A stretch of DNA of 60,723 nt from Candidatus Zapsychrus exili (GTDB lineage: Bacteria > Omnitrophota > Gorgyraeia > Zapsychrales > Zapsychraceae): the NCBI GenBank assembly GCA_030765585.1, contig JAVCCJ010000034.1, positions 1 through 60,723 on the forward strand, in the 5' to 3' direction. This document shows positions 1-60,718 of this stretch, one piece after another (position 1 is the stretch's first letter; each line of letters opens with the position of its first letter). Position numbers and translations under genes: made by a program. The notes under the pieces are model-generated. The model had not been told where the DNA came from, did not search any database, and saw nothing but the letters and a program-made list of their open reading frames with translations.

Positions 1-5
1 TTATA

Positions 6-94
6 TGGTGTTGCGTTCTTATCGGTGTTGCGCAAAAGCGTCGCAACACCTCTTTTTGAGAATCCTTCGGCTTCTCAACTTCATCGCAACACCA
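6..94. repeat. Nested inverted-repeat element upstream of miaB (may be cut by the window edge)
   Basis: TGGTGTTGCG 6-15 pairs with CGCAACACCA 85-94; inner GGTGTTGCG 24-32 / CGCAACACC 42-50; TTGAGAA 56-62 / TTCTCAA 72-78. Confidence 0.6.
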
Positions 95-119
95 CCGACG
101 TTTTAAGAAAGACAATAAA

Positions 120-1433
120 ATGAAGAGTGTCTTTCTTAAAACGTATGGCTGTCAAATGAATGAGCATGATAGCGAAATCATCCGCTCTATTTTGACTCAA
201 GCTGGATTCAATTTTACAGAAAATGAATTAGATGCAGATATACTACTTCTTAATACATGCTCTGTACGTGAGAGTGCGCACAGAAAGATCTTTGGAAAGA
301 TACACAGGGTTCGTCACGAAAAAGGAGGGCTTCCTCTTATAGTGGGTGTGTTAGGCTGTATGGCAACGGGCTTAAAAGACGAACTTATAAAAGATAAGGG
401 TTTTGCGATAGATTTCATAGTAGGACCAGATAACTACAAAAACTTACCTACAACTATCAATAAAGTAGTTGAATCACATGAAAAATTGTCAGACATTAAA
501 TTTTATAAAAACGAAACTTACTCAGAAATAGTGGCCGAAAGGGATGCAAGCATAAATGCTTGGATTGCTATCATGAGAGGCTGCGACAACTTCTGCTCTT
601 TTTGTATAGTTCCACTTACTCGTGGACGCGAAAGGTCATTAAATAAAGATTCAATAATAAAAGAAGCTAAAAGCTTAAGCTCTAAAGGATATCAGCAAAT
701 CACTCTTTTAGGTCAAAATGTAAACTCATATAAAGACGGTGAAGCAGACTTTTGCAAACTTCTTGAAGAACTAGTTAAAGTAAAAGATATAGAAAGAATA
801 CGATTTGTCGCACCACATCCAAAAGATTTTCCTGAAAAGTTGATTGATGTAATAGCAAAAAATAAGAAAATATGTAAAAGCATTCATCTTCCACTGCAAG
901 CAGGAAACAACAGAATTCTTGATCTGATGAATAGAAAATATACAAAAGAAGAATTTATTTCTCTAGCCGATAAAATGCGAAATAAAATTCCAAATCTTGT
1001 TTTAACAACAGACATAATTGTAGGTTTTCCAACTGAAACAGAAGAAGAATTTAATGACACTCTCTACGTGGTAGAAAAAGTTGGATTTGATTCTGCTTTC
1101 ATTTTTAAATATTCGGAAAGAAAGAATACAAAAGCAGCTAAAGAGCTTAAAGATGATATCTCGGAAGAAGAAAAAACCAAGCGCATAGTTAAACTTCAAG
1201 ATCTTCAAGGAAAAATATCTTTAAAGAAAAATGAAGCTGAAATAGGCAAAACGTATACAATATTAATAGAAAACATGAACAAAACTAAAGAACCTTGTCT
1301 TTACATAGGCAAGAATGATGGAAATAAACTTATTACCTTCAGATCATCCAAAAAATACGAATTAGGGTCATTTATTGATGTTAAAGTTAATCATGGCTCA
1401 CCGCATAATCTTAGAGGAGAAGAAGTTCTATGA
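120..1433 (+). CDS. miaB: tRNA-2-methylthio-N6-dimethylallyladenosine synthase (radical SAM methylthiotransferase)
   Basis: N-terminal KTYGCQMN..D and NTCSVRE; radical SAM CDNFCSFC; C-terminal TRAM-like region. Confidence 0.92.
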   Translation: MKSVFLKTYGCQMNEHDSEIIRSILTQAGFNFTENELDADILLLNTCSVRESAHRKIFGKIHRVRHEKGGLPLIVGVLGCMATGLKDELIKDKGFAIDFIVGPDNYKNLPTTINKVVESHEKLSDIKFYKNETYSEIVAERDASINAWIAIMRGCDNFCSFCIVPLTRGRERSLNKDSIIKEAKSLSSKGYQQITLLGQNVNSYKDGEADFCKLLEELVKVKDIERIRFVAPHPKDFPEKLIDVIAKNKKICKSIHLPLQAGNNRILDLMNRKYTKEEFISLADKMRNKIPNLVLTTDIIVGFPTETEEEFNDTLYVVEKVGFDSAFIFKYSERKNTKAAKELKDDISEEEKTKRIVKLQDLQGKISLKKNEAEIGKTYTILIENMNKTKEPCLYIGKNDGNKLITFRSSKKYELGSFIDVKVNHGSPHNLRGEEVL

Positions 1434-5691: not shown

Positions 5692-5769
5692 CTGTCATTC
5701 CGGTTTCAAACCGTAAGGCGAGAATGCAGGAATCTCATAAAAAGATTCCTGCTACGCCAAGAATGACAG
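5692..5769. repeat. REP/dRS3-like dyad (GTCATTCC...GGAATCT family)
   Basis: Outer IR CTGTCATTC 5692-5700 / GAATGACAG 5761-5769; inner IR GCAGGAATCT 5726-5735 / AGATTCCTGC 5743-5752; related copies at 12434, 17501, 19558, 20251, 28337. Confidence 0.8.
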
Positions 5770-5780
5770 AAGAGGAATAA

Positions 5781-8680: not shown

Positions 8681-8812
8681 AATCTAAGCACTAAATGCGA
8701 AATACGAAACAATATCAAAATTCTAATAACAAAGAAAGAAAACAATATTTCTAACTTTAGAGCTTTATAATCCGAATTTGTTTCGATATTCGTGTTTCGA
8801 ATTTGAGAGATT
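8681..8812. repeat. Heptamer-periodic dyad repeat element (CGAAAYA / TTTCGA family)
   Basis: Ends AATCT/AGATT; heptamer-like units on both arms; 8774-8792 is the exact reverse complement of 9436-9454. Confidence 0.65.
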
Positions 8813-8815
8813 ATT

Positions 8816-9415
8816 ATGAACGATTGGGCATATACAGATAAGGTCAAAAAACATTTTACAAATCCAAAGAATATCCTTACCGATGAAGAAAGTTTTAAAG
8901 CAGATGGCAAAGGAATGGTTGGAAACGTAAAATGTGGTGATCAAATGTTAATGGCAATTAAAGTAAATAAAGATAGTGACACTATCGAAGATTGCAAGTG
9001 GAAGACATATGGCTGTGCATCTGCAATTGCAAGCACATCTGTTTTATCTGTTATGGTAAAAGGTATGAAACTCAGTGACGCCTATCACATAACGCCTAAA
9101 GACATAACAAAAGAGCTTGGAAGTTTGCCTGAACACAAAATACATTGCTCTGTCTTAGGAGATAAAGCTCTTCGTGCGGCAATTGATGATTATTATGAAA
9201 AATCAAACCAAGAAGAAAAAATAGAAAAAGATAAAGCAAAAATTATTTGCCAATGCATGAGCGTAACTGACCATGAAATAGAGCATTCTGTACTAGAAGG
9301 CGCAAAAACATACTTAGCGCTTCAAGAACACACTAAACTTGGCACTGTTTGCGGACAATGCGAAACAGAGGCAAGAAAACTACTAGAAGAATACAAAAGA
9401 AAACACTTTTCATAA
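8816..9415 (+). CDS. nifU: Fe-S scaffold: IscU/NifU N-terminal domain plus BFD-like [2Fe-2S] domain
   Basis: GNVKCGDQM, TYGCASAIAS, KIHCS; C-terminal ICQCMSV...GTVCGQC. Confidence 0.85.
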   Translation: MNDWAYTDKVKKHFTNPKNILTDEESFKADGKGMVGNVKCGDQMLMAIKVNKDSDTIEDCKWKTYGCASAIASTSVLSVMVKGMKLSDAYHITPKDITKELGSLPEHKIHCSVLGDKALRAAIDDYYEKSNQEEKIEKDKAKIICQCMSVTDHEIEHSVLEGAKTYLALQEHTKLGTVCGQCETEARKLLEEYKRKHFS

Positions 9416-9514
9416 AAAACACGAAATCCTAATTTCGAATATCGAAACAAATTCAAAACAATAAATCCAAACATTTTAAGCTTTTAGTCATTAGAATTTA
9501 GCATTTAGGGTTTA
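9416..9514. repeat. Second heptamer-periodic dyad element
   Basis: CGAATATCGAAACAAATTC 9436-9454; right arm TTAGAAT-TTAGCAT-TTAGGGT 9491-9511. Confidence 0.6.
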
Positions 9515-12359: not shown

Positions 12360-12595
12360 ACAAAAGGTGCCAGTGCAGATTCAAGATGCTAGTGCAACAG
12401 TTTAAAAAATTTTATCACTACTACCCTAACTTCTGTCATCCCTGCGAAGGCAGGGATCCCCGCTTTTAAATAACTGTTTCTCGCAACATCAAGAGATTCC
12501 TGCCTTCGCAGGAATGACAACGGGAGAAACAGGGATGGCAAACAAAGAACAAAAGGTGCCAGGCACTTGTCGATTTATTTTAGGTGCCAGGCACC
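12360..12595. repeat. Composite repeat locus: GGTGCCAGGCACC-family copies around a dRS3-like dyad
   Basis: ACAAAAGGTGCCAG at 12360-12373 and 12549-12562; palindrome GGTGCC-A-GGCACC 12583-12595; dyad TGTCATCCCTGCGAAGGCAGGGATC 12434-12458 and GAGATTCCTGCCTTCGCAGGAATGACA 12493-12519. Confidence 0.8.
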
Positions 12596-17461: not shown

Positions 17462-17550
17462 AAATTCCTGTGCCACACACCATAAGGGGTTTAAAAGGCT
17501 GGATCCCCGCATTCGCGAGGATGACAGTATAAGGTCCAAGTATGTGTCCC
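17462..17550. repeat. Right copy of bipartite direct repeat, carrying an inserted dRS3-like half
   Basis: 24-mer 17462-17485, GGATCCCCGCATTCGCGAGGATGACAG 17501-17527, 11-mer 17540-17550. Confidence 0.85.
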
Positions 17551-18505: not shown

Positions 18506-18550
18506 AAAAGGAGCCAAGCTCCGTGCTTAGCACGGAGCTTGGCTCCTTTT
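18506..18550. terminator. Perfect 21-bp inverted repeat, probable bidirectional terminator
   Basis: AAAAGGAGCCAAGCTCCGTGC-TTA-GCACGGAGCTTGGCTCCTTTT between convergent genes. Confidence 0.8.
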
Positions 18551-19543: not shown

Positions 19544-19557
19544 CCTCTATTACAGAA

Positions 19558-19641
19558 TGTCATTCCCGCGAAGGCGGGAATCTATTACAAAAAATTATTA
19601 ATATTTATATTTAAAGATCCCTACCTACGCAGGGATGACAA
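19558..19641. repeat. dRS3-like dyad in the folE leader
   Basis: TGTCATTCCCGCGAAGGCGGGAATCT 19558-19583 (contains ATTCCC-N8-GGGAAT) and AGATCCTCTACCTACGCAGGGATGACA 19615-19641. Confidence 0.8.
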
Positions 19642-19653: not shown

Positions 19654-20193
19654 ATGGAAAAATATTACGAAGATTTGATCAAATCTATTGGGGAAGACCC
19701 AAAAAGAGAAGGCTTAGTAGATACTCCTAAGCGTGCAGCAAAAGCTCTTAAGTATCTCACAAAAGGCTACGGCGAAGATTTAGATGAAGTCGTAAACAAC
19801 GCTATATTTGAATCTGACAATGATGAAATGATTATAGTAAAAGATATTGAGATGTATTCTCTTTGCGAACATCATCTGCTGCCATTCTTTGGAAAATGTC
19901 ATGTTGGATATCTTCCGAACGGAAAAATAATAGGACTTTCTAAAATATCAAGAATAGTTGATGTTTTTGCAAGACGGCTACAAGTCCAAGAAAACCTCAC
20001 AAAAGAAATAGCAGAAACAATACTTAAGTATACTAACGCTACAGGTGTAGGAGTAGTTATTGAAGCTCAACATCTATGCACAATGATGCGCGGAGTAGAA
20101 AAACAAAACTCTGTAATGAAAACATCTTGCATGCTTGGCACATTCAGAAAAAATGATTCAACTCGATCAGAATTTTTGACGTTGATAAAATGA
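19654..20193 (+). CDS. folE: GTP cyclohydrolase I
   Basis: [41 protein letters not shown]. Confidence 0.97.
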
Positions 20194-20216
20194 ATTAAAA
20201 AGGTAACCCGTTAAAT

Positions 20217-20305
20217 GGGATGGGAAGCGCCCAGCCCCTACAAAATAAACGGAGATTCCTGCCTTCGCAGGAATGACAGAATAAGCGCAGGAATGACAGA
20301 ATAAG
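20217..20305. repeat. Composite: GTAG-type REP half (minus), dRS3-like half and 19-bp tandem duplication
   Basis: GGGATGGGAAGCGCCCAGCCCCTAC 20217-20241; GGAGATTCCTGCCTTCGCAGGAATGACAG 20251-20279; GCAGGAATGACAGAATAAG at 20267-20285 and 20287-20305. Confidence 0.75.
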
Positions 20306-20320
20306 AGGAATAAAATAACT

Positions 20321-20761
20321 ATGTTTGGAATTTTAATACTACTATTTACCGTATTACCCGCACTAGAACTAATACTACTTATTAGAGTAGGTGCTCAAAT
20401 TGGAGCTTTTAATACATTATTTATTATAGTGTTTACTGGTGTGCTTGGTGCTTACCTGGCAAGGTTGCAAGGTTTTGTTGTGCTTCGTAAGATACAAGAA
20501 AATTTAAGCAAAGGGATGATACCGAATGAGGATCTTTTAGATGGTCTTATGATTTTAGTTGGAGGTATAGTTCTTTTAACCCCTGGCTTTATTACAGATA
20601 TAACGGGATTCTTGCTTCTTATTCCTTTAACCAGATCAATTATAAAATTCTGGCTAAGCAAACAATTTGAAGGAATGATAAAAAGAGGCAATGCAATCAA
20701 CGTAAATTCATTTGATGGCCGACCAAACGAAACAAAAAGATTTGACGATATTGATGTGTAG
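20321..20761 (+). CDS. fxsA: FxsA family membrane protein
   Basis: P.LELILLI.VG..IG, TGVLGAYLAR.QG, GG.VLLTPGFITD..G. Confidence 0.9.
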   Translation: MFGILILLFTVLPALELILLIRVGAQIGAFNTLFIIVFTGVLGAYLARLQGFVVLRKIQENLSKGMIPNEDLLDGLMILVGGIVLLTPGFITDITGFLLLIPLTRSIIKFWLSKQFEGMIKRGNAINVNSFDGRPNETKRFDDIDV

Positions 20762-20979
20762 CGATAAGCTTCGCTTATCGCGATAAGGTGCTGCTCTTAT
20801 AATGTTATTGCCCGAAGGCAATAACGTGTTATCAAAAGCATCACCGCCCAATGTTACCTTTTGTTCCGCGGTGTTTCTTTTTTTCGGTAATTCCCAGAAG
20901 CGTGGAATTACCTCTTAGCGATAAACTTCGTTTATCGCTTACCGGAAACACCTTACAGAGATAAGCTTCGCTTATCTCT
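20760..20979. other. 220-bp multi-hairpin element with imperfect terminal inverted repeats (MITE-like or structured RNA)
   Basis: Six stems; 31-nt terminal IRs 20760-20790 / 20949-20979 (24/31 match); see findings. Confidence 0.65.
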
Positions 20980-21073
20980 TATTAAGTAAGAAGAAATATT
21001 TTTCTTGCAAAAATAAAAGATATTGCTAACATAATTCCATCTTAACAAATATAAACATTTGGAGGAAAACAAT

Positions 21074-21814
21074 ATGCAACTAAAAGACAAAATTGCTTTG
21101 ATAACAGGCTCAGCGCGCGGAATAGGAAAAGCTATTGCCGAAGGCTTTGCTAAAGAAGGAGCAACAATAATTATCTCTGATATAAACGAAGAGATGGCGC
21201 TTGAAACCTCAAAAGAGTTTATTGGCCAAGGCCTAAAAGCTGATTGCTTTGCAGCTAATGTTACAGATACAAAAAGTGTTGTAGAAATGGTCGATAAAAT
21301 TCTTGACAAATATGGACGGATTGATATATTAGTTAACAACGCAGGCATAACAAAGGATAATCTACTAGTAAGAATGGACGAAGCTCAATGGGACGCCGTT
21401 CTTAATATTAATTTAAAAGGTACCTTTGTATGCACTAAGGCAGTAATAAAAAGTATGATGAAGGCAAGAGCTGGTAAGATTGTTAATATTGCTTCGATCA
21501 TTGGAATAACAGGAAATGCAGGGCAAGCCAATTATGCTGCAAGCAAAGCAGGCATAATAGGTTTCACGAAATCAATAGCAAAAGAATTTGCTTCTCGTGG
21601 AATTACAGCTAATGCTGTAGCTCCAGGCTTTATTAAGTCAGAAATGACAGAAAAGCTAACTGACGCAGCAGCTGAAGCTATTTTTAAGAACATTCCGATG
21701 GGAACAATGGGAACACCTGATGATGTAGCTAATGTGTGTTTATTTTTAGCATCTAAAAGCGCAAATTACATCACTGGTCAAACAATAGTAGTTGACGGCG
21801 GAATGGTAATATAA
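21074..21814 (+). CDS. fabG: 3-oxoacyl-ACP reductase
   Basis: TGSARGIG, NNAGIT, YAASK; RBS GGAGG 21061-21065; upstream of acpP-fabF. Confidence 0.95.
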   Translation: MQLKDKIALITGSARGIGKAIAEGFAKEGATIIISDINEEMALETSKEFIGQGLKADCFAANVTDTKSVVEMVDKILDKYGRIDILVNNAGITKDNLLVRMDEAQWDAVLNINLKGTFVCTKAVIKSMMKARAGKIVNIASIIGITGNAGQANYAASKAGIIGFTKSIAKEFASRGITANAVAPGFIKSEMTEKLTDAAAEAIFKNIPMGTMGTPDDVANVCLFLASKSANYITGQTIVVDGGMVI

Positions 21815-21859
21815 ACACAAAGATAGAAGAAAAAGTATACCTTAAATAGGAGGAAATAA

Positions 21860-22093
21860 ATGGCAACTGAAGAAAAAATTAAATCAATCATCGCAGAACA
21901 ATTAGGCGTTAAACCAGAAGAAGTTACTCCAGAAGCATCATTCATAGATGACCTTGGTGCAGATTCTCTAGATACTGTTGAACTTATCATGGCATTAGAA
22001 GAAGAGTTCGGCGTTGAAATTCCAGATGAAGATGCTGAAAAAATGACTACTGTTGGCGATGCAGTTAAATATATCAACGAAAAAGCTGTTTAG
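21860..22093 (+). CDS. acpP: Acyl carrier protein
   Basis: [21 protein letters not shown]. Confidence 0.98.
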
Positions 22094-25734: not shown

Positions 25735-25738
25735 TAGC

Positions 25739-25817
25739 GTAGGGGCGGGCCTTGTGTCCGCCCATTAAAATTATTATCCATATCTATCGTTCGGGCGGAC
25801 ACAAGGCCCGCCCCTAC
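25739..25817. repeat. GTAG-type REP doublet (REPIN-like)
   Basis: Perfect 25-bp IR GTAGGGGCGGGCCTTGTGTCCGCCC 25739-25763 / 25793-25817. Confidence 0.85.
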
Positions 25818-25843
25818 AAATTACCTCTATATCTCTTTTTATC

Positions 25844-28183: not shown

Positions 28184-28229
28184 AAAACCCATCTGATCAA
28201 CATAAAAGAGTTGACGAGATGGGTTTTTT
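28184..28229 (+). terminator. Intrinsic terminator after rpsI
   Basis: AAAACCCATCT...AGATGGGTTTTTT with inner TCAAC/GTTGA stem. Confidence 0.75.
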
Positions 28230-28270
28230 ATTTTATTATAAAACTCTTATTCTTCGTCGGTATTCTTAAG

Positions 28271-31484: not shown

Positions 31485-31566
31485 GTAGGGGCAGGCCCCC
31501 GTGCCTGCCTGAATAACAATGATCAATTATATTGAATAGCGGGCGGGGATAGAACCCCGTCCCTAC
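31485..31566. repeat. GTAG-type REP doublet
   Basis: GTAGGGGCAGGCCCCCGTGCCTGCC 31485-31509 and GGGCGGGGATAGAACCCCGTCCCTAC 31541-31566, each self-hairpinned. Confidence 0.8.
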
Positions 31567-32829: not shown

Positions 32830-33744
32830 ATGAAGAAAGATCTACTCACAATAGAAGACTTAACAAAAGACGATATACTAAAGATCTTAAAATCAACAGA
32901 AGAACTTAAAAAAGATAAATTTAAGTGCAACAATCTTTTAGATGGCAAATCTATTGCTCTAGTTTTTCAAAAATCATCAAACCGAACTCGCGTATCTTTT
33001 GAAGTAGGGATAAGTCAATTAGGCGGAAACTGTGTTTATCTAGGTCCGAAAGAAATCAAGCTTGGAGTTCGAGAATCTGTATCTGATGCAGCAAATACAC
33101 TTGCTCGTTATGTTGATGGGATTGTGGCTCGAACATACAAGCATCAAGACATTATCGATTTGGCAAAATATGCCAATATACCTATTATAAATGGCTAGTC
33201 TGATCTTTATCATCCATGTCAGGGGCTAACTGATATCTTTTCCGTAAAGGAAAAGTTTGGCACCTTAGATGGAATAACCGTATCTTATGTAGGCGATGGA
33301 AACAATGTATGCACTTCTTTATTGTTTGTATGTGCAAAGCTTGGAGTTAATGTCAATATTGCGACACCTGACGCATATCGAATAGACTCAACTATTTTAG
33401 ATAAAGCTAACTCTTACGCCAAACAATCTGGTGCAAAAATAAACACAGGAAACGACCCAAAAGAATTAGTTAAAGGGGTAGATGTGATTTACGCAGATGT
33501 CTGGGTAAGTATGGGACAAGAGGATGAGACAGCGAAACGACTAAAAGATTTCGAAGATTTCCAAATAAATAAAAATCTAGCCGATCTTGCTAATAAAGAT
33601 TTTGTTTTCATGCATTGCCTTCCTGCGCATCGAGGGCAAGAAGTAACAGGCGAAGTTATTGACGGACCTAATTCAATTGTGTTTGATCAGGCTGAAAATC
33701 GACTTCATACTCAAAAAGCTATACTTAAATTTCTATTTCAATAG
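32830..33744 (+). pseudogene. argF: Ornithine carbamoyltransferase interrupted by an in-frame TAG (33196-33198)
   Basis: KSSNRTRVSFE, then ING-TAG-SDLYHPCQ, YVGDGNNV, W.SMG, HCLP in one frame; real lesion vs assembly error unresolved. Confidence 0.85.
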
Positions 33745-41248: not shown

Positions 41249-41683
41249 ATGTCAAATGCATATCTATCTCTAGGATCAAATCTAGGTAACCGACAAAAAA
41301 ACATAGAGGATGCGATTTCTCTATTAAATGAGAATCCCATAAATATTGTTTCGACATCTTCTATCATAGAAACCAATCCTATAGGCGGACCAAGGAATCA
41401 AAACAAATATTTAAATGCTGTTGTAGAAGTAACAACAGATCTTAGTCCGCACAACCTTCTTTACAAAGTTAACAAAATAGAGCATAGGCTAGGAAGAGTT
41501 CGCACAATAAAAGATGGACCGCGAACTATTGACATAGATATACTTATTTTTGATTCAATAAAAATAGAATCTGATGACCTTACCATTCCTCATCCTAGAA
41601 TGTTAGATAGAGATTTTGTTATGATTCCATTAAAAGAAATAGCGAAAGAATTAGTAGAAAATTTAGATTATGCTAACAATTAA
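41249..41683 (+). CDS. folK: 2-amino-4-hydroxy-6-hydroxymethyldihydropteridine diphosphokinase
   Basis: YLSLGSNLG, YLNAV, GPRTIDIDIL, PHPRM..R.FV. Confidence 0.95.
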   Translation: MSNAYLSLGSNLGNRQKNIEDAISLLNENPINIVSTSSIIETNPIGGPRNQNKYLNAVVEVTTDLSPHNLLYKVNKIEHRLGRVRTIKDGPRTIDIDILIFDSIKIESDDLTIPHPRMLDRDFVMIPLKEIAKELVENLDYANN

Positions 41684-43371: not shown

Positions 43372-43704
43372 ATGGCTAAGAAAGTTGCTAAAGTAGGTAT
43401 CAAAAAGGAAGCTGGATGCCTTTATTTTGTAGACAAGAAAGGCGATATCTCTTGCGCTAAAATGGCTCGTGGTAACAAGAAGGGTGGTTCACCTAAGAAA
43501 GTTGCTAAAGTCGGTATTACAAAAGAGTCAGGTTTCCTTTATTTTATAGATAAAGACGGAGACATCTCTTGCGCAAAAATGGTTCGTGGGGGTAAAAAGA
43601 AAAAAGCTGCAAAGAAAGTTGCAAAGAAGAAAGCTCCAGCTAAGAAGAAAGTTGTGAAGAAAATTGTAAAGAAAGTTGTAAAAAAAGCTAAAAAAAAGAA
43701 ATAA
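43372..43704 (+). CDS. Small basic protein with a duplicated 32-aa domain and Lys/Ala/Val-rich tail
   Basis: Strong RBS GGAAAGGAGG; repeats at residues 3-34 and 42-73 (26/32 identical); 22 Lys in last 36 aa. Confidence 0.8.
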   Translation: MAKKVAKVGIKKEAGCLYFVDKKGDISCAKMARGNKKGGSPKKVAKVGITKESGFLYFIDKDGDISCAKMVRGGKKKKAAKKVAKKKAPAKKKVVKKIVKKVVKKAKKKK

Positions 43705-52434: not shown

Positions 52435-54006
52435 ATGACTGCAAACAAACAATTAGGAATTTTCTGGGGAGATGACAAACTATCTTTCTCTGAAATATAT
52501 GGTACATCCTTTGATGAGGAAGCAAATAAGTCCTTTAGCATATCTTATAAAAGAATCAGTATCGGTGGACTAATTGAAGTTGAAGACCAAGAGACAAAGG
52601 CAGAAGAAACTAAACTAGTTGAATCCATAAAAAATACTTTAGCACAAAAAGGGATAGATGGATCCTCTGTTAAGCTGTCGCTACCCACAAGAGACATAAT
52701 ACTCAGATCTTTTGTTGTCCCTTGGGTTCCTCAAAATGAAATGAAAAGAGTAGTTGAATTTGAAGCAAACAAATACTTACCTTTTCCTCTAAGCGAACTA
52801 TCCTATTCTTTTCAATCTTTGACTATAACTCAGAAAGGAAACAAACTCATAAGGATAATATTCGCTGCTATAAAAAAAGATGCGTTAAATAAATATCAAG
52901 AGCTGCTAGAAAGAGCTGGGTTAGGGGTTGATGTTGTAGAGCCTGACCCAATAAGTCTAATAAGAATGTTGACACACCAAGACTTAATACCAAAAAATGA
53001 AGCATTTGCTCTTGTGGTAAAAGAGAGCTCTAGGGGTAAAATTATTATAATCGACCAAGGCATACCTCAGTTTATTAGAGATTTTCAATTAAGAATAAAA
53101 TCATCTGACAACGAAGAAATAAGCCCTGATTTCTTAACAACAAGGTTTGTAAACGAAATTCATGTGTCGCTAGATTACTTTAATAGGATGGGGAGTCAAC
53201 AAAATATAAAGAGCTTAAAATTAATATGTTTTTCTAATTCAGAAAACACAATAAAAGCTCTTGAAGAAAATCTAGATATACCTATTACAAAAATAGAAAA
53301 TGATACCATCTCAACAATAGGACAAGACAATATCGACTTTCTTAATTCATATGGCGCAAGTCTTTTTGGACTAATAGACACCCCTTCAGACCTTAATTTA
53401 TCAGAAAAAAAACTAGCAAACAAATCTGCAACAATAAAAGAGCTACTAAAGAATATTGACTACAAAACAGTACTGCCTATCATAGCAGGATCTATAGCTT
53501 TAATAATAGTTTCATCCATGATGTCAAATTTCTTTATCAAGAAAATAAATGAGAAATTTATTACCCTTAAAGAAAAATTAGGCATATATGAAAATGCTTC
53601 TGTCGAAATCATAGAAAGCAAAAACAACATGTTAAGAGAGCAGCTTGATGTATTTAAAAATATACGAGTAAACAGTGAGATATCTTTATTTTTAAGAGAA
53701 GTGCCAAAAATGTTGCCAGAAGGAGCATGGATTAAAGATTTTAATATAGCATACGTCGAAAAAACTTCTAGAAATAGCGAAACCGGCGAAGACGTTTTAA
53801 ACAAAAGTAAGCCTAAAATAGGTCTAAACGGCTACGTTCATAAAAAAAATACAAACGAGCAATTTAAGATTGCTAATAAATTCCTTAGCAATCTTAAGCG
53901 CAATAAAGAATTTTCTAGTCAGTTTGAAGAAATTGAGCTTCAATCGGCTAAAGCAGAGAAATTAGAACAATACGAACTAACTTCTTTTGAAATTAACTGT
54001 AAATAA
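52435..54006 (+). CDS. PilM-PilN fusion (GspL-like architecture)
   Basis: PilM-like actin-fold region (SLPTRDIILRSF, YLPFPLSEL, VVEPDPISL), TM near residue 345-370, then PilN-like coiled coil and ferredoxin-like region. Confidence 0.7.
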   Translation: MTANKQLGIFWGDDKLSFSEIYGTSFDEEANKSFSISYKRISIGGLIEVEDQETKAEETKLVESIKNTLAQKGIDGSSVKLSLPTRDIILRSFVVPWVPQNEMKRVVEFEANKYLPFPLSELSYSFQSLTITQKGNKLIRIIFAAIKKDALNKYQELLERAGLGVDVVEPDPISLIRMLTHQDLIPKNEAFALVVKESSRGKIIIIDQGIPQFIRDFQLRIKSSDNEEISPDFLTTRFVNEIHVSLDYFNRMGSQQNIKSLKLICFSNSENTIKALEENLDIPITKIENDTISTIGQDNIDFLNSYGASLFGLIDTPSDLNLSEKKLANKSATIKELLKNIDYKTVLPIIAGSIALIIVSSMMSNFFIKKINEKFITLKEKLGIYENASVEIIESKNNMLREQLDVFKNIRVNSEISLFLREVPKMLPEGAWIKDFNIAYVEKTSRNSETGEDVLNKSKPKIGLNGYVHKKNTNEQFKIANKFLSNLKRNKEFSSQFEEIELQSAKAEKLEQYELTSFEINCK

Positions 54007-54018
54007 ATTTTAAAACTT

Positions 54019-54654
54019 ATGAATTTAGAAAAAATAAAAAACTTTATCAACAAACTCAACAATATCAAAATAGAAGATTTTAAGAACATTGATGTTGAAC
54101 AGTTAAAAAATATCAATATATACCAGATTAAAGATTTTATCCTGTCTAGACCAAATGAAGCAATAAAAGTGTTCTTTGTAATGCTATCTATAATAATTCT
54201 TATCAGTATCCGTTCTGGACACGTTAAAGAGACGAGAACATTAAGGGAAAACACAATACAGATGGCGGACATTTTAACATACGTTGAAGAATATAAGGTT
54301 CTTCAAAAAGAATATAATGACTTTATGAAAAGTTTTCCAAAATCAATCCCAAGCTATCAATTATTAAACAAGCTATCTGAGCTTGCTCAATCAAGAGGAA
54401 TAAAAATATTAGATTTTTCTCCAGCAGCAGAAGAAGACAAAAAACTATGGCAACTTGCAACTGTTGATATTTCAATTGAATCAAAAGATTATAAAAGCAT
54501 CATTCTTTTTATGCAAGATATTGAAGATCCTAAACATGCTATGAGAGTAGATACTTGGACCGGGGAAATGCCAAGCGAGCAAACAGAAGGCGCTGCTAAA
54601 AATCTACTTAAAGCCAAAATTACAATAGGCGCAATTAAGTTAAAAAATGAATAA
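54019..54654 (+). CDS. pilO: PilO/GspM-like protein
   Basis: Single TM, coiled coil, LLNKLSELAQSRGI.I..F.P, Y.SI..F..DIE. Confidence 0.7.
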   Translation: MNLEKIKNFINKLNNIKIEDFKNIDVEQLKNINIYQIKDFILSRPNEAIKVFFVMLSIIILISIRSGHVKETRTLRENTIQMADILTYVEEYKVLQKEYNDFMKSFPKSIPSYQLLNKLSELAQSRGIKILDFSPAAEEDKKLWQLATVDISIESKDYKSIILFMQDIEDPKHAMRVDTWTGEMPSEQTEGAAKNLLKAKITIGAIKLKNE

Positions 54655-55189
54655 AAAATATTTAATACTAGTCCTATTTTTATTGTCATTAACTTCGTTA
54701 TCTTATGGAAAAGATACTGTATCTAGTGACTCTAAACTGCAAAATACTTATGATTTAAGCGACCTAAGAAATCCTTTTCTTCCTCAATTACCTGTTAAAG
54801 AAAAAGAAACTATTAAAAAAGAAGTTAAAAAAGAAACTCAAATAGACAGAATAAAAAAAGAACGCACTAAAGTTAAAAAAATAAAACCTATTAAGAAAAG
54901 GGTCAAAAAGAAAACTGTGGTTCCTAAAATAGATAAGGCAGTACAAGAGGTTGTGTCTGAGGAGAAAAAAACATTAAAAGAAGTATTAGAGCCGACTGCG
55001 CCTGAGATTAAAATAACAGGTCTAATATGGAACTCGGAAAAACCTCAAGCGATAATAGAAGGCAAAGTTGTCAACATAGGAGATGCCTTGCCATATAAAA
55101 GTAAAAAAGATGTAATAAAAATAATCGCTATTCGTAAATCCGAAGTTGACATTAACTTTAGAGACAAAATATTTACAATAAAACAATAA
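54647..55189 (+). CDS. PilP/GspC-like periplasmic protein without lipobox
   Basis: Signal peptide with no Cys, DLRNPF motif, ITGLIWNSEKPQAIIEGKVVNIGD beta domain. Confidence 0.6.
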   Translation: MNKKYLILVLFLLSLTSLSYGKDTVSSDSKLQNTYDLSDLRNPFLPQLPVKEKETIKKEVKKETQIDRIKKERTKVKKIKPIKKRVKKKTVVPKIDKAVQEVVSEEKKTLKEVLEPTAPEIKITGLIWNSEKPQAIIEGKVVNIGDALPYKSKKDVIKIIAIRKSEVDINFRDKIFTIKQ

Positions 55190-55201
55190 AAGGAGTGCTA
55201 T

Positions 55202-56704
55202 ATGAACAAGAACGATTTTTATAAATTATTAAAAATGACATTTATTTTGTTAATGTTTATGTTAATAACAACGTCCTCAGATGCGCTAAATTTTTCTGAT
55301 ACAAGCGTATTTATCTACCCTGAATTTGAAGAAACGGTATCTATGGACTTTAAAGATGCTTCTCTAAATGACGTCTTAAAAATATTCTCTCAACAGTCTA
55401 ACCTAAACTTTATAGCAGCAGCAAATGTTTCAGACAAGAAAGTCAATCTTTACTTGAACAATGTAAGTATAGAGGAAGCTCTTGAGAGAATTCTATCTGC
55501 TAATAACTTAACATATGAAATTACTCCAGGAAGTAATATTTTTACCGTTAAAGCTCTCAATAGACCAGAAAAACAGCTAGTAACTCACGTATATAGACTA
55601 AAGCATGCGTCTGTATCTTCTGCTAAAATAACAAAAGAAATTGGCAGTTCTAGCGATTCAGATAGTTCAAGCTCAGAAACTTCAGACTCAGATAGTTCAG
55701 AAGAAGGCTTGATATCTGCTATTGAATCTCTATTAACAGAGGATGGATCTATCGTAGAAGACGCTAGAACAAATAGTATTATAGTTACAGATATTCCTAG
55801 CATATTTCCATCAATAGAACAAACAATTACGAAATTGGATATTAGGATTCCGCAAATTCTAATAGAAGTTGAGATGCTTGATATATCAAAATCTACTACA
55901 GAGCTATTAGGGTCTAAATGGGGCAATACTCCTCTAAGTATAACGGGCGGCGAAAGAAGTGACTACCTTCCTTTTAATCTAAACAATGCTATGGACACCC
56001 CGGCAAGTAGCGGCATTGAAGACAGGTACACCACAGGTACTGTTTCATTTGCAGGACTAACTTATATTTTACAATTTTTAAGAACACAAACTGATACTAA
56101 AAATCTTGCAAGACCTAGAATACTTACTCTAAACAATCAAACAGCTGAAATAAAAATTGTAACAGATGAAGCAATAGGCAGTGTAAACAGTCAAACAACT
56201 TCTGAGGGGTCATCAACTTCTGCGCTAGAAGCTGAAAGAGTTCAAACAGGTGTGTTTCTAAAAGTAACACCTCAAGCGAACATAGAGACAGGCGAAATAA
56301 CTCTTGCTATTGAGCCTAGAGTTATTCAAGCTAGAACGGGTCAAACTTTTGGAGCTAACACCTATAAAGACCCTGAAGAAAGAGGAACAAAATCAATACT
56401 ACGAGTAAAGGATGGTGATACCGTAATACTCGGAGGACTATTAAGAAACGATATTTCTAACACAAAAACATGGGTGCCTTTTATTGGAAGAATACCTATA
56501 ATAGGGTCCCTATTTAAGCATAAAGATAAAGCGGAAACACAAAGAGAGTTGATTGTCTTTATAACACCACACATAATACAAGAAAATGTAGACTTTAAAG
56601 CTCAAAAAAATAATAGAAAAATAACCAGGGAACAAGACATGCCTTTTAGAAGATTTAATATGGTCGACAAAGAGCTTTCTTCAATAGAAAGGAGTAATTT
56701 CTGA
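55202..56704 (+). CDS. Secretin (PilQ/GspD family, short form)
   Basis: VSMDFKDASL.DVL STN domain, IVEDARTNSIIV, QILIEV, ARPRILTLNNQTAEI, VPFIGRIPIIGSLFK. Confidence 0.92.
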   Translation: MNKNDFYKLLKMTFILLMFMLITTSSDALNFSDTSVFIYPEFEETVSMDFKDASLNDVLKIFSQQSNLNFIAAANVSDKKVNLYLNNVSIEEALERILSANNLTYEITPGSNIFTVKALNRPEKQLVTHVYRLKHASVSSAKITKEIGSSSDSDSSSSETSDSDSSEEGLISAIESLLTEDGSIVEDARTNSIIVTDIPSIFPSIEQTITKLDIRIPQILIEVEMLDISKSTTELLGSKWGNTPLSITGGERSDYLPFNLNNAMDTPASSGIEDRYTTGTVSFAGLTYILQFLRTQTDTKNLARPRILTLNNQTAEIKIVTDEAIGSVNSQTTSEGSSTSALEAERVQTGVFLKVTPQANIETGEITLAIEPRVIQARTGQTFGANTYKDPEERGTKSILRVKDGDTVILGGLLRNDISNTKTWVPFIGRIPIIGSLFKHKDKAETQRELIVFITPHIIQENVDFKAQKNNRKITREQDMPFRRFNMVDKELSSIERSNF

Positions 56705-56707
56705 TAT

Positions 56708-58456
56708 ATGGCTAGACCAAGGATGGGCGAAATACTGCTCAAAAAAGGACTTATTACTTTAGAGCAACTAGAAAAAAGTCTTGAGACTCAAAAGAAACAA
56801 GGGGGTCGTATAGGTGAGATCTTTATAAGTCTCGGCTTTATATCAGAAGAGAATATGATAGCTGAACTAGGTCTTCAGCTAGGCATACCATATTATTCTT
56901 CAGAGCAACCAGAACTACTTACTCCAAACCCTGATCAAGAGCTAGAAAAGCTCATACCTAGTGATTTTGCACGCAAAAACAACGTGCTACCGCTATCTAA
57001 GAATATGAACTCATTAACATGCGCTATAAACGACCCTTCAGAGCTTATTTTAATAGATAATATAAAAAGAATTACTGACTGTGAAACAAATATAGTGCTA
57101 GCTACAAAAAAATCTATACAAAAAGCTATAGGCAAGTTCTATTTTGGAGAAAGTGGAAGTATAACTGACGACTCCAAACATTCTATGCTTAATCAAGCTG
57201 TTGAGAAGTCTTATGCTCAAAATGAAGATAACATCTCAATAGCAAGCTCTTCGACAAATACTGCATCCGCAGAACTTAGTTTAGACAGTCTTATAGCAAA
57301 AGCTGGGGAAGCTCCTGTTATCAAACTTGTTGACTTAATTATTCGCCAGGCAATAGATGAACAAGCGAGTGATATTCACATAGAACCTTTTGAAAACAAT
57401 ATTCATCTTCGATATAGAATAGATGGAACCTTATACGACATACCGCCTCCAGCTCCTCATTTACATTTACCAATAGTTTCTCGTATAAAAATTTTAGCTA
57501 AACTAGATATAGCAGAAAAACGTCTCCCACAAGATGGCAATATTACAGCAAAGCTTGAAGACAGAGCTGTTGACTTAAGAATCTCCACCATACCAACGGT
57601 TTGGGGAGAAAAAGTAGTTATGAGAATCTTAGACAAAGGCGCTGTAAACCTTCAGCTAGGAAGCCTTGGTTTCGACACTAAACAAGTAGAGACGATCAGA
57701 AAAGCCTTAAAATCTCCATATGGATTATTTTTTGTAACAGGACCAACTGGAAGCGGAAAATCTACCACGCTTTATTCTTCACTAAACGAAGTTATGGATT
57801 CAACTAAAAACATTATGACAGCAGAAAACCCAGTTGAATATAAATTAGAGGGTATAAATCAAATAAATGTGCGCTCTGCAATTGGACTTACATTCGCAAC
57901 AGCGCTTAAAGCATTCTTACGTCAAGATCCTGATATTATCATGGTTGGAGAGGTAAGAGACCTAGAAACTGCTTCTATATGTATACGAGCTGCATTAACA
58001 GGGCATTTCGTTTTAAGCACACTACATACTAATGATGCTGCCTCTGCTATAACTAGACTTATGGACATTGGAGTATCTAGCTTTTTACTTACACCTTCTT
58101 TAACGCTTATAATTGGACAACGACTTGCGAAGAAACTCTGCTCAGAATGCAAAGAGCCTTACGAACCTACGCCTGAACAACATGGTGGAATAAAATTCAA
58201 AAGTGATTTAATATATAAACCGAAAGGATGTGAGAAGTGCAATCACCATGGTTATAGGGGAAGAGTGGTTGTGTCAGAAGTCCTAGAAGTTAATGATAAA
58301 ATAAGAGCATTGATATCTAAGAATGCGGCTTCAAATGAGATTAAAGATGCAGCAAGATCTAACGGTATGTCTACTATATTTGAAACAGGAATCAAACTAG
58401 TCGAAAATGGCATAACTAGCTTTGAAGAAATTTGCAGAGTAAGTATCGAAGTATAA
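56708..58456 (+). CDS. pilB: PilB/GspE assembly ATPase with N-terminal MshEN motif
   Basis: ASDIHIEP, LPQDG, GPTGSGKST, LRQDPDIIMVGEVRD, TGH.VLSTLHTN, tetracysteine motif. Confidence 0.92.
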   Translation: MARPRMGEILLKKGLITLEQLEKSLETQKKQGGRIGEIFISLGFISEENMIAELGLQLGIPYYSSEQPELLTPNPDQELEKLIPSDFARKNNVLPLSKNMNSLTCAINDPSELILIDNIKRITDCETNIVLATKKSIQKAIGKFYFGESGSITDDSKHSMLNQAVEKSYAQNEDNISIASSSTNTASAELSLDSLIAKAGEAPVIKLVDLIIRQAIDEQASDIHIEPFENNIHLRYRIDGTLYDIPPPAPHLHLPIVSRIKILAKLDIAEKRLPQDGNITAKLEDRAVDLRISTIPTVWGEKVVMRILDKGAVNLQLGSLGFDTKQVETIRKALKSPYGLFFVTGPTGSGKSTTLYSSLNEVMDSTKNIMTAENPVEYKLEGINQINVRSAIGLTFATALKAFLRQDPDIIMVGEVRDLETASICIRAALTGHFVLSTLHTNDAASAITRLMDIGVSSFLLTPSLTLIIGQRLAKKLCSECKEPYEPTPEQHGGIKFKSDLIYKPKGCEKCNHHGYRGRVVVSEVLEVNDKIRALISKNAASNEIKDAARSNGMSTIFETGIKLVENGITSFEEICRVSIEV

Positions 58457-58491
58457 TATAATAAATAATAATTCAAAAGAGGAACATAATA

Positions 58492-59735
58492 ATGCCAAAA
58501 TTTTCTTATGTTGTAAAAGACAGAGAAGGTCACACTAAAAAAAATGTTGTCGAAGAAATTAGCCAGTCTATTCTTGTTTCAAAACTGCAAGCGCAAGAAT
58601 ATTTTATAATAAGCGTAAAAGAAATTAGCATGCCAATACCTCTTGCCAAAAAAAGACAACAAAAGAAAAAGAAAAAACAGTTCTCTCATAAAAAAGTTAA
58701 ACTAGAAGATTTACTTACTTTTTCACGCCAACTTGCAACAATGCTTGAATCTGGAGTAAATTTGGTACGAAGCTTAACTGTTATTCAGACACAAATACAA
58801 AGTGAACAGCTTTCAAAAATAATAAAACAAATACGAAACGATGTTGAGCAAGGTCTGTCTTTGAGTCCAGCACTTGCAAAACATCCGAAAGTTTTTAATC
58901 AATTTTGGGTAAGTTTAGTTGAAGTAGGAGAGGCCTCAGGAACTATGTCTACCGTTTTAAATAAACTCTCTTTTTACCTTGAACAACAAGCATCCTTTAG
59001 ATCAACAATTACATCTGGAATAATATATCCTTTAGTTTTATTGGCGTATCAGTTGGTGCCATTACATTTTTTGCTCTTTTTGTTGGCCCAAGATTTCAAT
59101 CCATCTTTCAGTCAATGGGGGCAGAACTACCTGCTATAACGACTATACTGCTCGCAACATTTGCATTTATAAAGAAAAACTTTCTATTGCTAGTTGGAGC
59201 AATTATCATAGCAGTGCAATTGTTTAAAAAGTATATAAAAACATACGTCGGAAGAATGAATTTCGAAAACTTTCTTTTTAATACTCCTACAATAGGTGAA
59301 ATATTCAAACTTATTGTGGTAGAAAGATTTACATCTCAAATGGCTATATTAATTGATGCTGGTGTTCCTATTTTATACGCACTTGATATATCAGAAAAGC
59401 TTGTTGACAATATAACTTGTGCTCAGATAATCAACGACATAAAGGAAGGTGTTAAAAAAGGTTCTCTTCTTGTAGATCAAATGCAAGAAAGCGAATTTTT
59501 TCCTCCCATGGCAATACAAATGATTATGGTAGGCGAAGAAACAGGAGAGCTTAGCAAAATGCTTAAGCACGTTGCAAACTATTACCAAGAAAATGTAGAA
59601 ACCTTTATGAAACGTTTTGCAACTATTATTGAACCTTTTATGCTTGTCTTTATGGGAGGTATAATAGGAACCATCGTTCTGGCAATGTTCTTGCCAATGT
59701 TTAACCTATCTCAGCTTGGTGGAGGTATGGGGTAA
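58492..59735 (+). pseudogene. pilC: PilC/GspF inner-membrane platform protein with a 1-nt frameshift near 59041
   Basis: FSRQLATMLESG...GEASG in the first frame; GEETGEL...IIEP in the second; adding one base at 59041-59043 restores IYPLVL-GVSVGAITFFALFVGPRF. Confidence 0.85.
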
Positions 59736-59968: not shown

Positions 59969-60096
59969 GATTATTGTACAGGTAAACTGCCCGTAAGGGT
60001 AGGACACAAAACTAGAGGACCCAAGCTCAAAGATTTTTTTTTGAGATTATATATAGATGTGAACATTAAGTATAGGGTAGCCAGTTGCCGATAATC
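59969..60096 (+). promoter_or_regulatory. Cyclic di-GMP-I (GEMM-I) riboswitch
   Basis: P1 GATTATTG/CGATAATC; GGTAAA; P2 CTGCCC-GTAA-GGGTAG; GACACAAA; P3 AACTAG..ACCC/GGGT..CCAGTT; 3' GCCGA. Confidence 0.85.
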
Positions 60097-60295: not shown

Positions 60296-60718
60296 ATGAA
60301 ACTTAACAAACTTAACAAAAAAAGCGGTTTTACATTACTTGAAATTATTATCGTTATTATAATTGTTGGTGTCTTAGCAAGTTTAGCATTACCTAGATTC
60401 TTCCAAACAGTCAAATTTGCAAAAAGTACTGAAGCCTTAAATACTCTTGGTGCAATAAGAAGAGCTGTTGATCGTTGTGCAATGATGACTGGAGCTGCAT
60501 TAACTTATGGAAACTGTAAAAGCTACGCACAGATAGGAATGGAGAACCCGAGCACTGAATCAGAAACGTTCGCTTATACATTTGGTTCAACCAGCACTAC
60601 AACAAGTTTAATTGCAACAAGTGCTGATGGAGTTATTACTCTTAAAATAAATTATGCCAACCTAGCCAATATAGTCGTTACTAGGACTGGTACCAGTTCA
60701 TACGCACAAATAAAGTAG
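60296..60718 (+). CDS. pilA: Type IV pilin (probable major pilin)
   Basis: RBS AGGAG; KKSG/FTLLEIIIVIIIVGVLASLALP; Cys pair RCAMM...NC. Confidence 0.85.
   Translation: MKLNKLNKKSGFTLLEIIIVIIIVGVLASLALPRFFQTVKFAKSTEALNTLGAIRRAVDRCAMMTGAALTYGNCKSYAQIGMENPSTESETFAYTFGSTSTTTSLIATSADGVITLKINYANLANIVVTRTGTSSYAQIK

What the first reader, a model, noticed from the sequence alone, without database searches (positions are those of the whole stretch)
20760..20979. 220-bp densely structured element between fxsA and fabG: unknown MITE or ncRNA
Seen: H1 GCGATAAGC-TTC-GCTTATCGC (20761-20781); a long interrupted hairpin 20787-20845 capped by TTATTGCC-CGAA-GGCAATAA; a stem GGTGTTTC/GAAACACC (20870-20877 / 20945-20952) enclosing GGTAATTCC/GGAATTACC and AGCGATAAAC-TTC-GTTTATCGCT; and H6 AGAGATAAGC-TTC-GCTTATCTCT (20957-20979). 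The three TTC hairpins differ by compensatory changes. GGTAA has two alternative partners (20908-20912 or 20939-20943), so the fold could switch. The ends form 31-nt imperfect terminal IRs. Established: C-GAA-G triloops (minus strand here) are exceptionally stable in ssDNA. Inference: a ssDNA-stage mobile element or origin, or a switchable RNA upstream of fabG. I do not recognise it as tmRNA, RNase P, SRP, 6S or a known riboswitch.
Basis: partly seen in the sequence, partly recalled or inferred. Interest (0 to 1): 0.72.

Follow-up and report, generated by a model that had tools for sequence, protein, structure and literature searches.

The report
Mosaic of small palindromic DNA repeats
The 220-bp "structured element" is real, but it is best read as a patchwork of small hairpin-forming repeats (REP-like selfish DNA) inserted between fxsA and the fabG promoter of an uncultured Omnitrophota bacterium, not as a dedicated RNA gene or fabG riboswitch.

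Summary
All the hairpins exist at the stated coordinates and far exceed chance (fold z about -9 on both strands; TTC hairpin 3 copies against 0.1 expected). No Rfam family matches.

Four syntenic Omnitrophota relatives (fxsA-fabG-acpP-fabF) have spacers of -4 to 147 nt without the element. The window keeps their promoter-like TTGCAA-N16-TGnTAnnAT box downstream of it. So the ~225 bp are an insertion between the fxsA stop codon and the fabG promoter.

The element is not one unit. Its modules occur separately, in foreign flanks, in salt-lake, salt-marsh, marine and sediment metagenomes; one 60-nt piece is 100% identical.

A diverged second copy of the three-way-junction module lies at window 7-93. 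It has conserved loop and linkers and 5 fully compensated stem pairs.

The same window also carries GTAG-headed and TGTC-tagged REP dimers.

Best reading: a REP/BIME-like mosaic of nested palindromic repeats. I infer, without having tested it, that it spreads as ssDNA hairpins through a HUH transposase and acts locally as a 3' hairpin block on the fxsA transcript.

High copy number, an associated transposase and transcription could not be shown.

It is a new variant of a known kind, of moderate interest.

The parts
20756..20980 (+). Whole inserted block (~225 nt) between the conserved end of fxsA (...GATATTGAT) and the ancestral-looking spacer (ATTAAGTAA...). Boundaries are uncertain by about 10-15 nt.
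   Evidence: Relatives' spacers are -4 to 147 nt and lack it. Both flanks align to the relatives' spacers.
20759..20781 (+). H1: TTC-triloop hairpin TAG-CGATAAGC-TTC-GCTTATCGC. The fxsA stop codon TAG (20759-61) lies in its 5' foot, and GTAG is at 20758-61.
   Evidence: (D1, I12)
20787..20845 (+). Module A: outer stem GGTG.CTGC/GCAT.CACC, linker TCTTATAA, inner hairpin GTTATTGCC-CGAA-GGCAATAAC. It occurs with foreign flanks in runs X1, X2 and X3.
   Evidence: (I3). Weak fit to the Y model (15.8 bits, E 0.25).
20870..20952 (+). Y2: three-way-junction module. Layout: outer stem GGTGTTTC/GAAACACC; linker TTTTTTTC; h1 GGTAATTCC-CAGAAGCGT-GGAATTACC (20886-20912); TCTT; h2 = TTC hairpin H5 (20917-20939); TACCG.
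   Evidence: I14, I16; 94.5 bits. Sub-unit 20881-20940 is 100% identical in a salt-marsh contig with other flanks.
20957..20979 (+). H6: TTC-triloop hairpin AGAGATAAGC-TTC-GCTTATCTCT, in the same orientation as H1 and H5.
   Evidence: (I8, D1)
7..93 (+). Y1: diverged second copy of the Y module, at the contig start and 26 nt upstream of the miaB-like ATG. Layout: GGTGTTGCG-TTCTTATC-[GGTGTTGCG-CAAAAGCGT-CGCAACACC]-TCTTTTT-[GAGAATCC-TTC-GGCTTCTC]-AACTTCAT-CGCAACACC.
   Evidence: score 46 against 16+/-2.7 in 2000 shuffles; 109 bits. Depth in X1 is 10.8 against 4.2, with a branch at 126.
21005..21032 (+). Promoter-like box TTGCAA-N16-TAACAT (with TGn), shared with relatives. It lies downstream of the element and upstream of the fabG RBS and ATG (21074).
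   Evidence: Alignment with L135 and L138. It falls below the threshold of the consensus scan, so it is inferred from conservation only.
20321..20761 (+). fxsA (146 aa)
   Evidence: Pfam FxsA, 1.6e-35. Homologues named Candidatus Omnitrophica, at most 69% identity.
21074..21814 (+). fabG (3-oxoacyl-ACP reductase), followed by acpP and fabF
   Evidence: Pfam adh_short_C2 2.4e-69, PP-binding, ketoacyl-synt

Best explanation
The block is a mosaic of small interspersed palindromic repeats of the REP/BIME kind. It was inserted, probably in more than one step, between the stop codon of fxsA and the fabG promoter of an Omnitrophota genome.

It is built from two motif classes:
- 21-23-nt hairpins with a C-TTC-G triloop (GAA on the other strand).
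- 'GGTG...CACC'-framed palindromes that carry one inner hairpin (module A) or two (Y module).

Shown: the modules are repeated elsewhere in other contexts, the orthologous sites in relatives are empty, and the stems keep perfect Watson-Crick pairing through double changes.

Inferred:
- The modules spread as single-stranded DNA hairpins handled by a HUH/Y1 transposase of the RAYT or IS200/IS605 type, preferentially next to or inside existing hairpins. This would give the nested, accreted architecture.
- In place, the block is co-transcribed at the 3' end of fxsA. There the stable hairpins, the first of which starts in the stop codon, would protect the message from 3' exonucleases and could damp read-through or termination-codon decoding.
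- It has no specific role for fabG.
For: - Empty orthologous sites. fxsA-fabG-acpP-fabF-icd-asd synteny holds in L135-L139, with spacers of 63, 147, -4, 65 and 26 nt and no element. The window's right flank retains their TTGnAA-N16-TGnTAnnAT box.
- Independent modules. Pieces 20776-20847, 20867-20941 and 20944-20975 lie in contigs with unlike flanks in X1-X3. Piece 20881-20940 is 100% identical in a salt-marsh contig, and 20872-20980 has 6 mismatches in a marine contig. Runs X3-X6 hold words of the element but almost none of the flanking genes.
- A paralogue, Y1, at 7-93, with a significant alignment. It has 5 pairs changed on both sides, none broken, and conserved loop and linkers. It sits at a contig end with about 2.5-fold depth and a branch.
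- The window also holds GTAG-headed REP dimers (25739-25817, 31485-31566) and TGTC-tagged dRS3-like hairpins, some of them nested.
- Literature precedent: REP stems of 6-13 bp, 2-3-nt loops, clusters, location downstream of ORFs, and REP dimers nested in longer palindromes (PMC3733652).
- No Rfam match. Folding is equally good on both strands, with perfect Watson-Crick stems.
Against: - High copy number is not shown. All 3 TTC hairpins in the 60-kb window lie in this block. The JGI metagenome scan found only the identical locus. Other copies number only a few per run.
- The GTAG tag is present only at H1; H5 has TTAG and H6 has ACAG.
- The hairpins are in direct, not alternating, orientation.
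- No transposase or RAYT gene is in the window, and the rest of the genome could not be examined.
- Conserved loop plus compensated stems would also fit a functional RNA.
- Transcription is untested, because no RNA run is available.
Confidence: 0.6

Rival explanations
1. The Y module, and perhaps the whole block, is a functional structured RNA. It could be a cis-acting intergenic or 3'-UTR element, or a small RNA, whose conserved 9-nt loop CARAAGCGU is bound by a protein or another RNA. The repeats would be paralogous RNA genes or motifs rather than selfish DNA.
For: - Y1 and Y2 keep the loop and linkers while the stems change by 5 fully compensated pairs.
- Both lie on the same strand as the flanking genes.
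- Y1 ends 26 nt before the miaB-like ATG, so it is almost certainly transcribed.
- Fold z-scores are about -9.
Against: - There are no G-U pairs and no strand asymmetry.
- It is absent from orthologous spacers of four relatives and from their loci.
- Modules recombine in different combinations and flanks.
- No Rfam family matches.
- Only two full copies are available, so covariation statistics are weak (13 of 500 shuffles reach the observed value).
- Concerted arm changes can also arise in DNA by template switching in quasi-palindromes (own knowledge).
Confidence: 0.2
2. It is a single MITE of about 220 bp with 31-nt terminal inverted repeats, mobilised as one unit by a DDE transposase.
For: - Terminal inverted repeat of 31 nt, 77% complementary (I1).
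- A possible 4-bp direct repeat TATT at 20749-52 and 20980-83.
- One X3 copy seems to have module A followed directly by CACCTTATAG, that is, the closing arm without module B.
Against: - The inverted repeat follows automatically from identical self-palindromic hairpins at both ends.
- No second full-length copy was found.
- Modules occur alone.
- The TATT repeat is weak in 35%-GC DNA, and removing it would shorten the conserved DDIDI C-terminus of FxsA.
Confidence: 0.1
3. The three GATAAGC-N3-GCTTATC palindromes are operators for a dimeric regulator of the fab operon.
For: Three near-identical 21-23-bp palindromes lie upstream of fabG-acpP-fabF.
Against: - They lie about 25 to 245 nt upstream of the -35 box, not over the promoter.
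- Relatives with the same operon lack them.
- One of them is embedded in a 60-nt unit found identical in an unrelated context.
Confidence: 0.04
4. It is a single-strand initiation (priming) signal or a replication-origin-like element that uses mini-hairpins.
For: - GCGAAGC lies on the minus strand of H1 and H6, and CCGAAGG on the plus strand of module A.
- These match mini-hairpin motifs described at the phage G4 origin and at RSF1010 ssiA (PMC13037366).
Against: - The context is chromosomal housekeeping genes.
- There is no replication gene, no similarity to plasmids or phages and none to viral contigs.
Confidence: 0.03

Closest known systems
REP / BIME elements (GTAG- and CGTC-tagged palindromic repeats; Di Nocera et al. 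2013, PMC3733652)
   Same: - 21-23-nt units with 9-10-bp stems and a 3-nt loop.
- Extragenic, just downstream of an ORF, between co-directional genes.
- Clustered with other hairpins.
- Subfamilies differ by complementary stem changes.
- H1 carries GTAG.
- Bona fide GTAG and TGTC REP dimers lie in the same window.
   Different: - AT-rich stems.
- The tag is not conserved (TTAG, ACAG).
- Head-to-tail orientation, which is rare for REPs.
- Low observed copy number.
- No RAYT seen.
REP dimers nested in longer palindromes (A. variabilis GTAG-15, H. neapolitanus CGTC-1, T. roseum GTAG-23; PMC3733652 section 7)
   Same: Two small hairpins sit inside an outer palindrome (GGTGTT.C ... G.AACACC), giving a three-way junction. 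Y1 even repeats its outer arms as the inner hairpin.
   Different: - The inner pair is a heterodimer in direct orientation.
- The 9-nt loop and the pyrimidine linkers are conserved.
- The outer stem co-varies between copies.
IS200/IS605-derived non-autonomous elements (PATE-type MITEs) and REPtrons (PMC8266576; own knowledge for PATEs)
   Same: - Similar hairpins at both ends on the same strand.
- No convincing target-site duplication.
- The junction falls right after TTGAT. From my own recall, TTGAT is a known IS200/IS605-type target pentanucleotide; this was not checked here.
   Different: - No tnpA or tnpB was found.
- Cleavage sites are undefined.
- The modules move separately.
Modular repeats such as pneumococcal BOX elements and Neisseria mosaic intergenic regions with dRS3 and Correia elements (own knowledge; PMC3733652 mentions the Neisseria mosaics)
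   Same: A mosaic of short modules, in variable number and combination, in intergenic DNA.
   Different: No sequence similarity. The modules here are nested hairpins rather than a linear A-B-C array.
DNA mini-hairpins GCGNAGC at ssDNA initiation sites (PMC13037366)
   Same: The exact GCGAAGC and CCGAAGG motifs cap the hairpins.
   Different: Here they cap long stems in chromosomal intergenic repeats. No replication context is present.

Membership tests
REP (GTAG/CGTC-tagged) | Small (20-40 bp) palindromic unit with a 6-13-bp stem and a short loop | tested here: met
   H1, H5 and H6 are 21-23 nt, with stems of 9-10 bp and a 3-nt loop. Criteria are from PMC3733652.
REP (GTAG/CGTC-tagged) | Conserved unpaired GTAG (or CGTC) tag at one end | tested here: inconclusive
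   H1 has GTAG at 20758-61, with its G paired. H5 has TTAG and H6 has ACAG.
REP (GTAG/CGTC-tagged) | High copy number in the genome | tested here: inconclusive
   There are 3 copies in 60.7 kb, all in this block. The JGI scan found only the identical locus. A few variant copies occur per Logan run. The rest of the genome was not available.
REP (GTAG/CGTC-tagged) | Extragenic position, mostly downstream of ORFs between unidirectional or convergent genes | tested here: met
   It lies directly after the fxsA stop codon, and fabG is co-directional.
REP (GTAG/CGTC-tagged) | Cognate RAYT / TnpA-REP gene flanked by the repeats | not testable with these tools
   No Y1_Tnp or other transposase was found among 58 ORFs of the window. 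The genome outside the window could not be reached.
BIME-type cluster | REPs in alternating orientation separated by conserved linkers | tested here: not met
   All three TTC hairpins and both Y copies are in the same orientation. Linkers are conserved only between Y1 and Y2.
Classical MITE | Terminal inverted repeats plus a target-site duplication, with multiple full-length copies | tested here: not met
   The 31-nt inverted repeat (77%) is trivial for palindromic ends. Only a weak TATT direct repeat is present. No second full-length copy was found, and modules occur separately.
IS200/IS605-derived element | Subterminal hairpins on one strand at both ends, insertion 3' of a fixed 4-5-nt target without duplication | tested here: inconclusive
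   H1 and H6 are in direct orientation at the ends. The window diverges from relatives right after TTGAT, and removing 20756-20980 would restore ...DIDIK*. This rests on one site only.
Any Rfam RNA family | Covariance-model match | tested here: not met
   The best E-values are 0.19-7, far below the gathering scores. The only gathering-level hit in the window is c-di-GMP-I at 59971-60092.
Intrinsic terminator | GC-rich stem followed by a T-run | tested here: not met
   No terminator-like site in 20100-21200. The hairpins are followed by GATAAGG, TACCGG and TATTAAG.

The most novel reading that the evidence does not exclude
The 'GGTG...CACC'-framed Y module would be an undescribed family of structured mobile elements of Omnitrophota and neighbouring uncultured lineages. 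The family features are a conserved CARAAGCGU loop, pyrimidine linkers, a TTC/GAA-triloop partner hairpin and freely co-varying stems. Such elements would insert into or beside hairpin loops by a so far unidentified ssDNA enzyme, or would double as a functional RNA recognised through that loop.
Probability: 0.15. Interest if true: 0.6.

Novelty: new variant of a known kind. Interest (0 to 1): 0.35.

Why it matters
- **Annotation.** It prevents a dense structure upstream of fabG from being annotated as a riboswitch or sRNA.
- **Repeat families in Omnitrophota.** A candidate-phylum genome carries at least four families of palindromic repeats: GTAG REP dimers, TGTC/dRS3-like hairpins, TTC hairpins and Y modules.
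- **Nesting.** The repeats are nested in one another. This is useful material for asking how REP-like DNA spreads, for example by targeting hairpins.
- **Assembly.** Such repeats break metagenome assemblies; Y1 sits at the contig end.
- **Dispersal.** A 60-nt unit that is identical in a salt lake and a salt marsh hints at recent mobility or transfer.

Tried and rejected
- **Genome-contig scan** with the 17-mer GATAARCTTCGYTTATC. The pattern was too short.
- **Metagenome-contig scan** with the 21-mer hairpin pattern. Only L125 was relevant, and it is 100% identical to window 20668-21971. The other 13 hits are unrelated.
- **Five viral-contig scans** with the hairpin, module A, h1 and Y patterns: nothing relevant.
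- **blastn against plasmids and phages**: no match.
- **Protein search** with a translated frame of the element, to catch spurious ORFs on other copies: nothing.
- **blastn-short** of the element against the window: no second copy at that sensitivity. Y1 was found only by reading the folded spacers and then confirmed.
- **Covariance model R1** on the relatives' loci: no Y element.
- **RNA runs**: none available.
- **Exact look-up of FxsA**: not on record.
- **Riboswitch-like switching** via the alternative GGTAA partner: rejected on thermodynamic grounds.
- **Terminator reading:** rejected.

Full report
**Observation**

- The repeat finder returns three copies of a 23-nt unit, TAG-CGATAAGC-TTC-GCTTATCGC, at 20759, 20916 and 20956 (91% and 87% identity to the first).
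- It also returns the perfect stems I12, I14, I16 and I8, the long imperfect hairpin I3, and the 31-nt terminal inverted repeat I1.
- The degenerate hairpin pattern occurs 3 times in 60.7 kb against 0.10 expected. No shuffle of 100 reaches 3.
- The 231-nt stretch folds to -85.9 kcal/mol (z -8.6) on the plus strand and -91.1 (z -9.2) on the minus strand.
- Among the 23 spacers of at least 90 nt in the window, only 25735-25843 is more extreme.
- The three TTC hairpins differ at two stem positions by changes on both sides.
- The alternative partner for GGTAA exists (I13). The alternative helix has at most 1% probability, and enforcing it costs 4.9 kcal/mol. A thermodynamic switch is therefore not favoured.

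**Context**

- The flanking genes are fxsA (Pfam FxsA, 1.6e-35) and fabG-acpP-fabF.
- The closest FxsA proteins reach only 69% identity. Those with names come from Candidatus Omnitrophica MAGs.
- The window has 35% G+C, and its 31-mers occur in salt-lake metagenomes.
- A JGI contig, Ga0075122_10079349, is 100% identical over 1304 nt.
- All 58 larger ORFs of the window are housekeeping or pilus genes. No transposase is among them.

**Empty-site comparison**

- Four relatives (five loci, L135-L139) keep the order fxsA-fabG-acpP-fabF-icd-asd.
- Their fxsA-fabG spacers are 63, 147, -4, 65 and 26 nt, and none holds the hairpins.
- Two of these spacers consist essentially of TTGnAA-N16-TGnTAnnAT. 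The window has the same box (TTGCAA ... TGCTAACAT, 21005-21032) downstream of the element, and it aligns with them.
- The block is therefore an insertion between the fxsA stop codon and the fabG promoter. It is not a conserved fabG leader.
- The relatives' genes end ...GATATTGAT ATT TAA/TAG. The window reads ...GATATTGAT|GTGTAGCG...CTCTT|ATTAAGTAA. Removing 20756-20980 would restore ...DIDIK*. This is an inference from one site.
- A competing reading uses a 4-bp direct repeat, TATT, at 20749-52 and 20980-83.

**Not one unit but a mosaic**

Logan contigs of public runs carry the modules separately, with flanks unlike the window.
- Piece 20776-20847 occurs in X1, X2 and X3. Pieces 20867-20941 and 20944-20975 occur in X1 and X3.
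- Runs from marine sediment, salt marsh and sea water hold words of the element but hardly any of the flanking genes.
- A salt-marsh contig has 20881-20940 with 0 differences in foreign flanks. A marine contig has 20872-20980 with 6 differences.
- Loose ends show recurrent arrangements:
  - a hairpin ending AAGTTTATCGCT, or AGAGATTAACTT-GAAA-AGTTAATCTCT, directly 5' of module A;
  - module A followed by ...CACCTTATAG without module B;
  - GGTGTTTCC-TTGAAACT-GGAAACACC, which is the outer stem without inner hairpins.
- No full-length second copy was found in the window, in JGI metagenomes, in viral contigs, or in plasmids and phages.

**A paralogue in the window**

- Reading the folded spacers revealed a diverged copy of the three-way-junction module at 7-93 (Y1).
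- The local alignment with 20870-20952 (Y2) scores 46, against 16 +/- 2.7 (maximum 37) in 2000 shuffles. It is the best non-self hit in the window.
- The outer stem, the linker TT.TT.TC, the 9-nt loop CA(A/G)AAGCGT, the linker TCTT and the TTC triloop of the second hairpin are conserved.
- The inner stem h1 differs at 4 of 9 pairs and the outer stem at 1. All these differences are compensated, and all 35 cells are Watson-Crick.
- A covariance model built from the two copies finds only them (109 and 94 bits). It also finds module A weakly (15.8 bits, E 0.25), which shares the frame GGTG.TGC-TCTTAT...GCA.CACC.
- The model finds nothing in the relatives' loci.
- Y1 lies at the very start of the contig. 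In X1 its depth is 10.8 against 4.2 for the adjacent gene, with a branch after position 126. This is what a repeat that breaks an assembly looks like.

**Genomic background**

- The same window holds GC-rich, GTAG-headed hairpin dimers at 25739-25817 and 31485-31566.
- It holds TGTC-tagged hairpins with an 8-bp stem and a 4-nt loop, of the dRS3/CGTC-1 type, at 12434-12519, 17500, 19556, 19614 and 20252.
- It holds nested versions of these at 5692-5770 and 28217-28270.
- Di Nocera et al. (PMC3733652) define REPs by such features. They report REP clusters, complementary stem variants, location downstream of ORFs, and REP dimers sitting inside longer palindromes.
- The Y module has the same nested architecture as those REP dimers.

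**Interpretation**

- The best-supported reading is a REP/BIME-like mosaic of nested palindromic repeats.
- The mechanism of spread is inferred by analogy: ssDNA hairpins processed by a RAYT or IS200/IS605-type HUH enzyme (PMC8266576).
- Three observations fit that mechanism: equally perfect hairpins on both strands, GCGAAGC and CCGAAGG mini-hairpin caps (PMC13037366), and same-strand hairpins at both ends.
- No enzyme was found, and copy number could not be measured.
- The local effect is also inferred, from what is known of E. coli REPs (own knowledge): 3' hairpins on the fxsA message, the first of which overlaps the stop codon.
- The main rival is a functional RNA motif, suggested by the conserved loop with compensated stems.
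  - Against it stand the lack of G-U pairs or strand bias, the absence from orthologous sites, the modular reshuffling, and the lack of any Rfam hit.
  - No RNA data exist to settle the question.

**Verdict**

The element is a new variant of a known kind of element, of moderate interest.

Noticed in passing
window 59971-60092 (+): c-di-GMP-I riboswitch aptamer (55 bits, gathering score 35). It lies upstream of a prepilin-type gene (60296-60718, N_methyl motif) and just after a type IV pilus / T2SS cluster (52435-59735).
   Followed up: partly
window 33196-33198: The ornithine carbamoyltransferase gene (32830-33744) has an in-frame TAG (…ING*SDLYHPCQ…) and is otherwise intact. This could be a pseudogene, an assembly error or a recoded stop.
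   Followed up: partly
window 58492-59735: The pilC-like T2SSF gene is split into two overlapping ORFs (58492-59139 and 59115-59735), each with one T2SSF domain. This looks like a frameshift.
   Followed up: no
window 12434-12519, 17500-17526, 19556-19581, 19614-19640, 20252-20305, 5692-5770, 28217-28270: A family of TGTC-tagged hairpins, (TGTC)ATTCCTGC-GAAG-GCAGGAAT, of the CGTC-1/dRS3 type. They occur as an inverted dimer, as singletons and as nested forms with inserts in the loop. At 20266-20305 an exact 20-nt tandem duplication, CGCAGGAATGACAGAATAAG, follows one copy.
   Followed up: partly
window 25739-25817 and 31485-31566: GC-rich GTAG-headed REP dimers with the GTAG ends outside (REPIN-like). 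The arms of the first are 25 nt and 100% complementary, and its spacer folds with z -12.9.
   Followed up: partly
window 1-126: The contig begins next to the Y1 repeat. In run X1 this stretch has about 2.5-fold depth and a second continuation after position 126, so the repeat probably ended the assembly.
   Followed up: partly
window 8774-8804 / 9424-9454: A 31-nt inverted repeat (84% complementary) brackets the nifU-like ORF 8816-9415. A 559-nt AT-rich spacer follows it.
   Followed up: no
window 18506-18550: A perfect 21-bp palindrome, AAAAGGAGCCAAGCTCCGTGC-TTA-GCACGGAGCTTGGCTCCTTTT, lies between convergent genes. It is probably a bidirectional terminator.
   Followed up: no
window 43372-43704: A 110-aa ORF without a Pfam match contains an internal 97-nt tandem duplication (43376-43472 and 43493-43589, 81% identity).
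   Followed up: no
window 19654-20761 compared with L135, L136, L138: Relatives have folE-folB-folK-fxsA. The window has folE directly followed by fxsA, with REP-like hairpins in the gap, and folK lies elsewhere (41249-41683).
   Followed up: no
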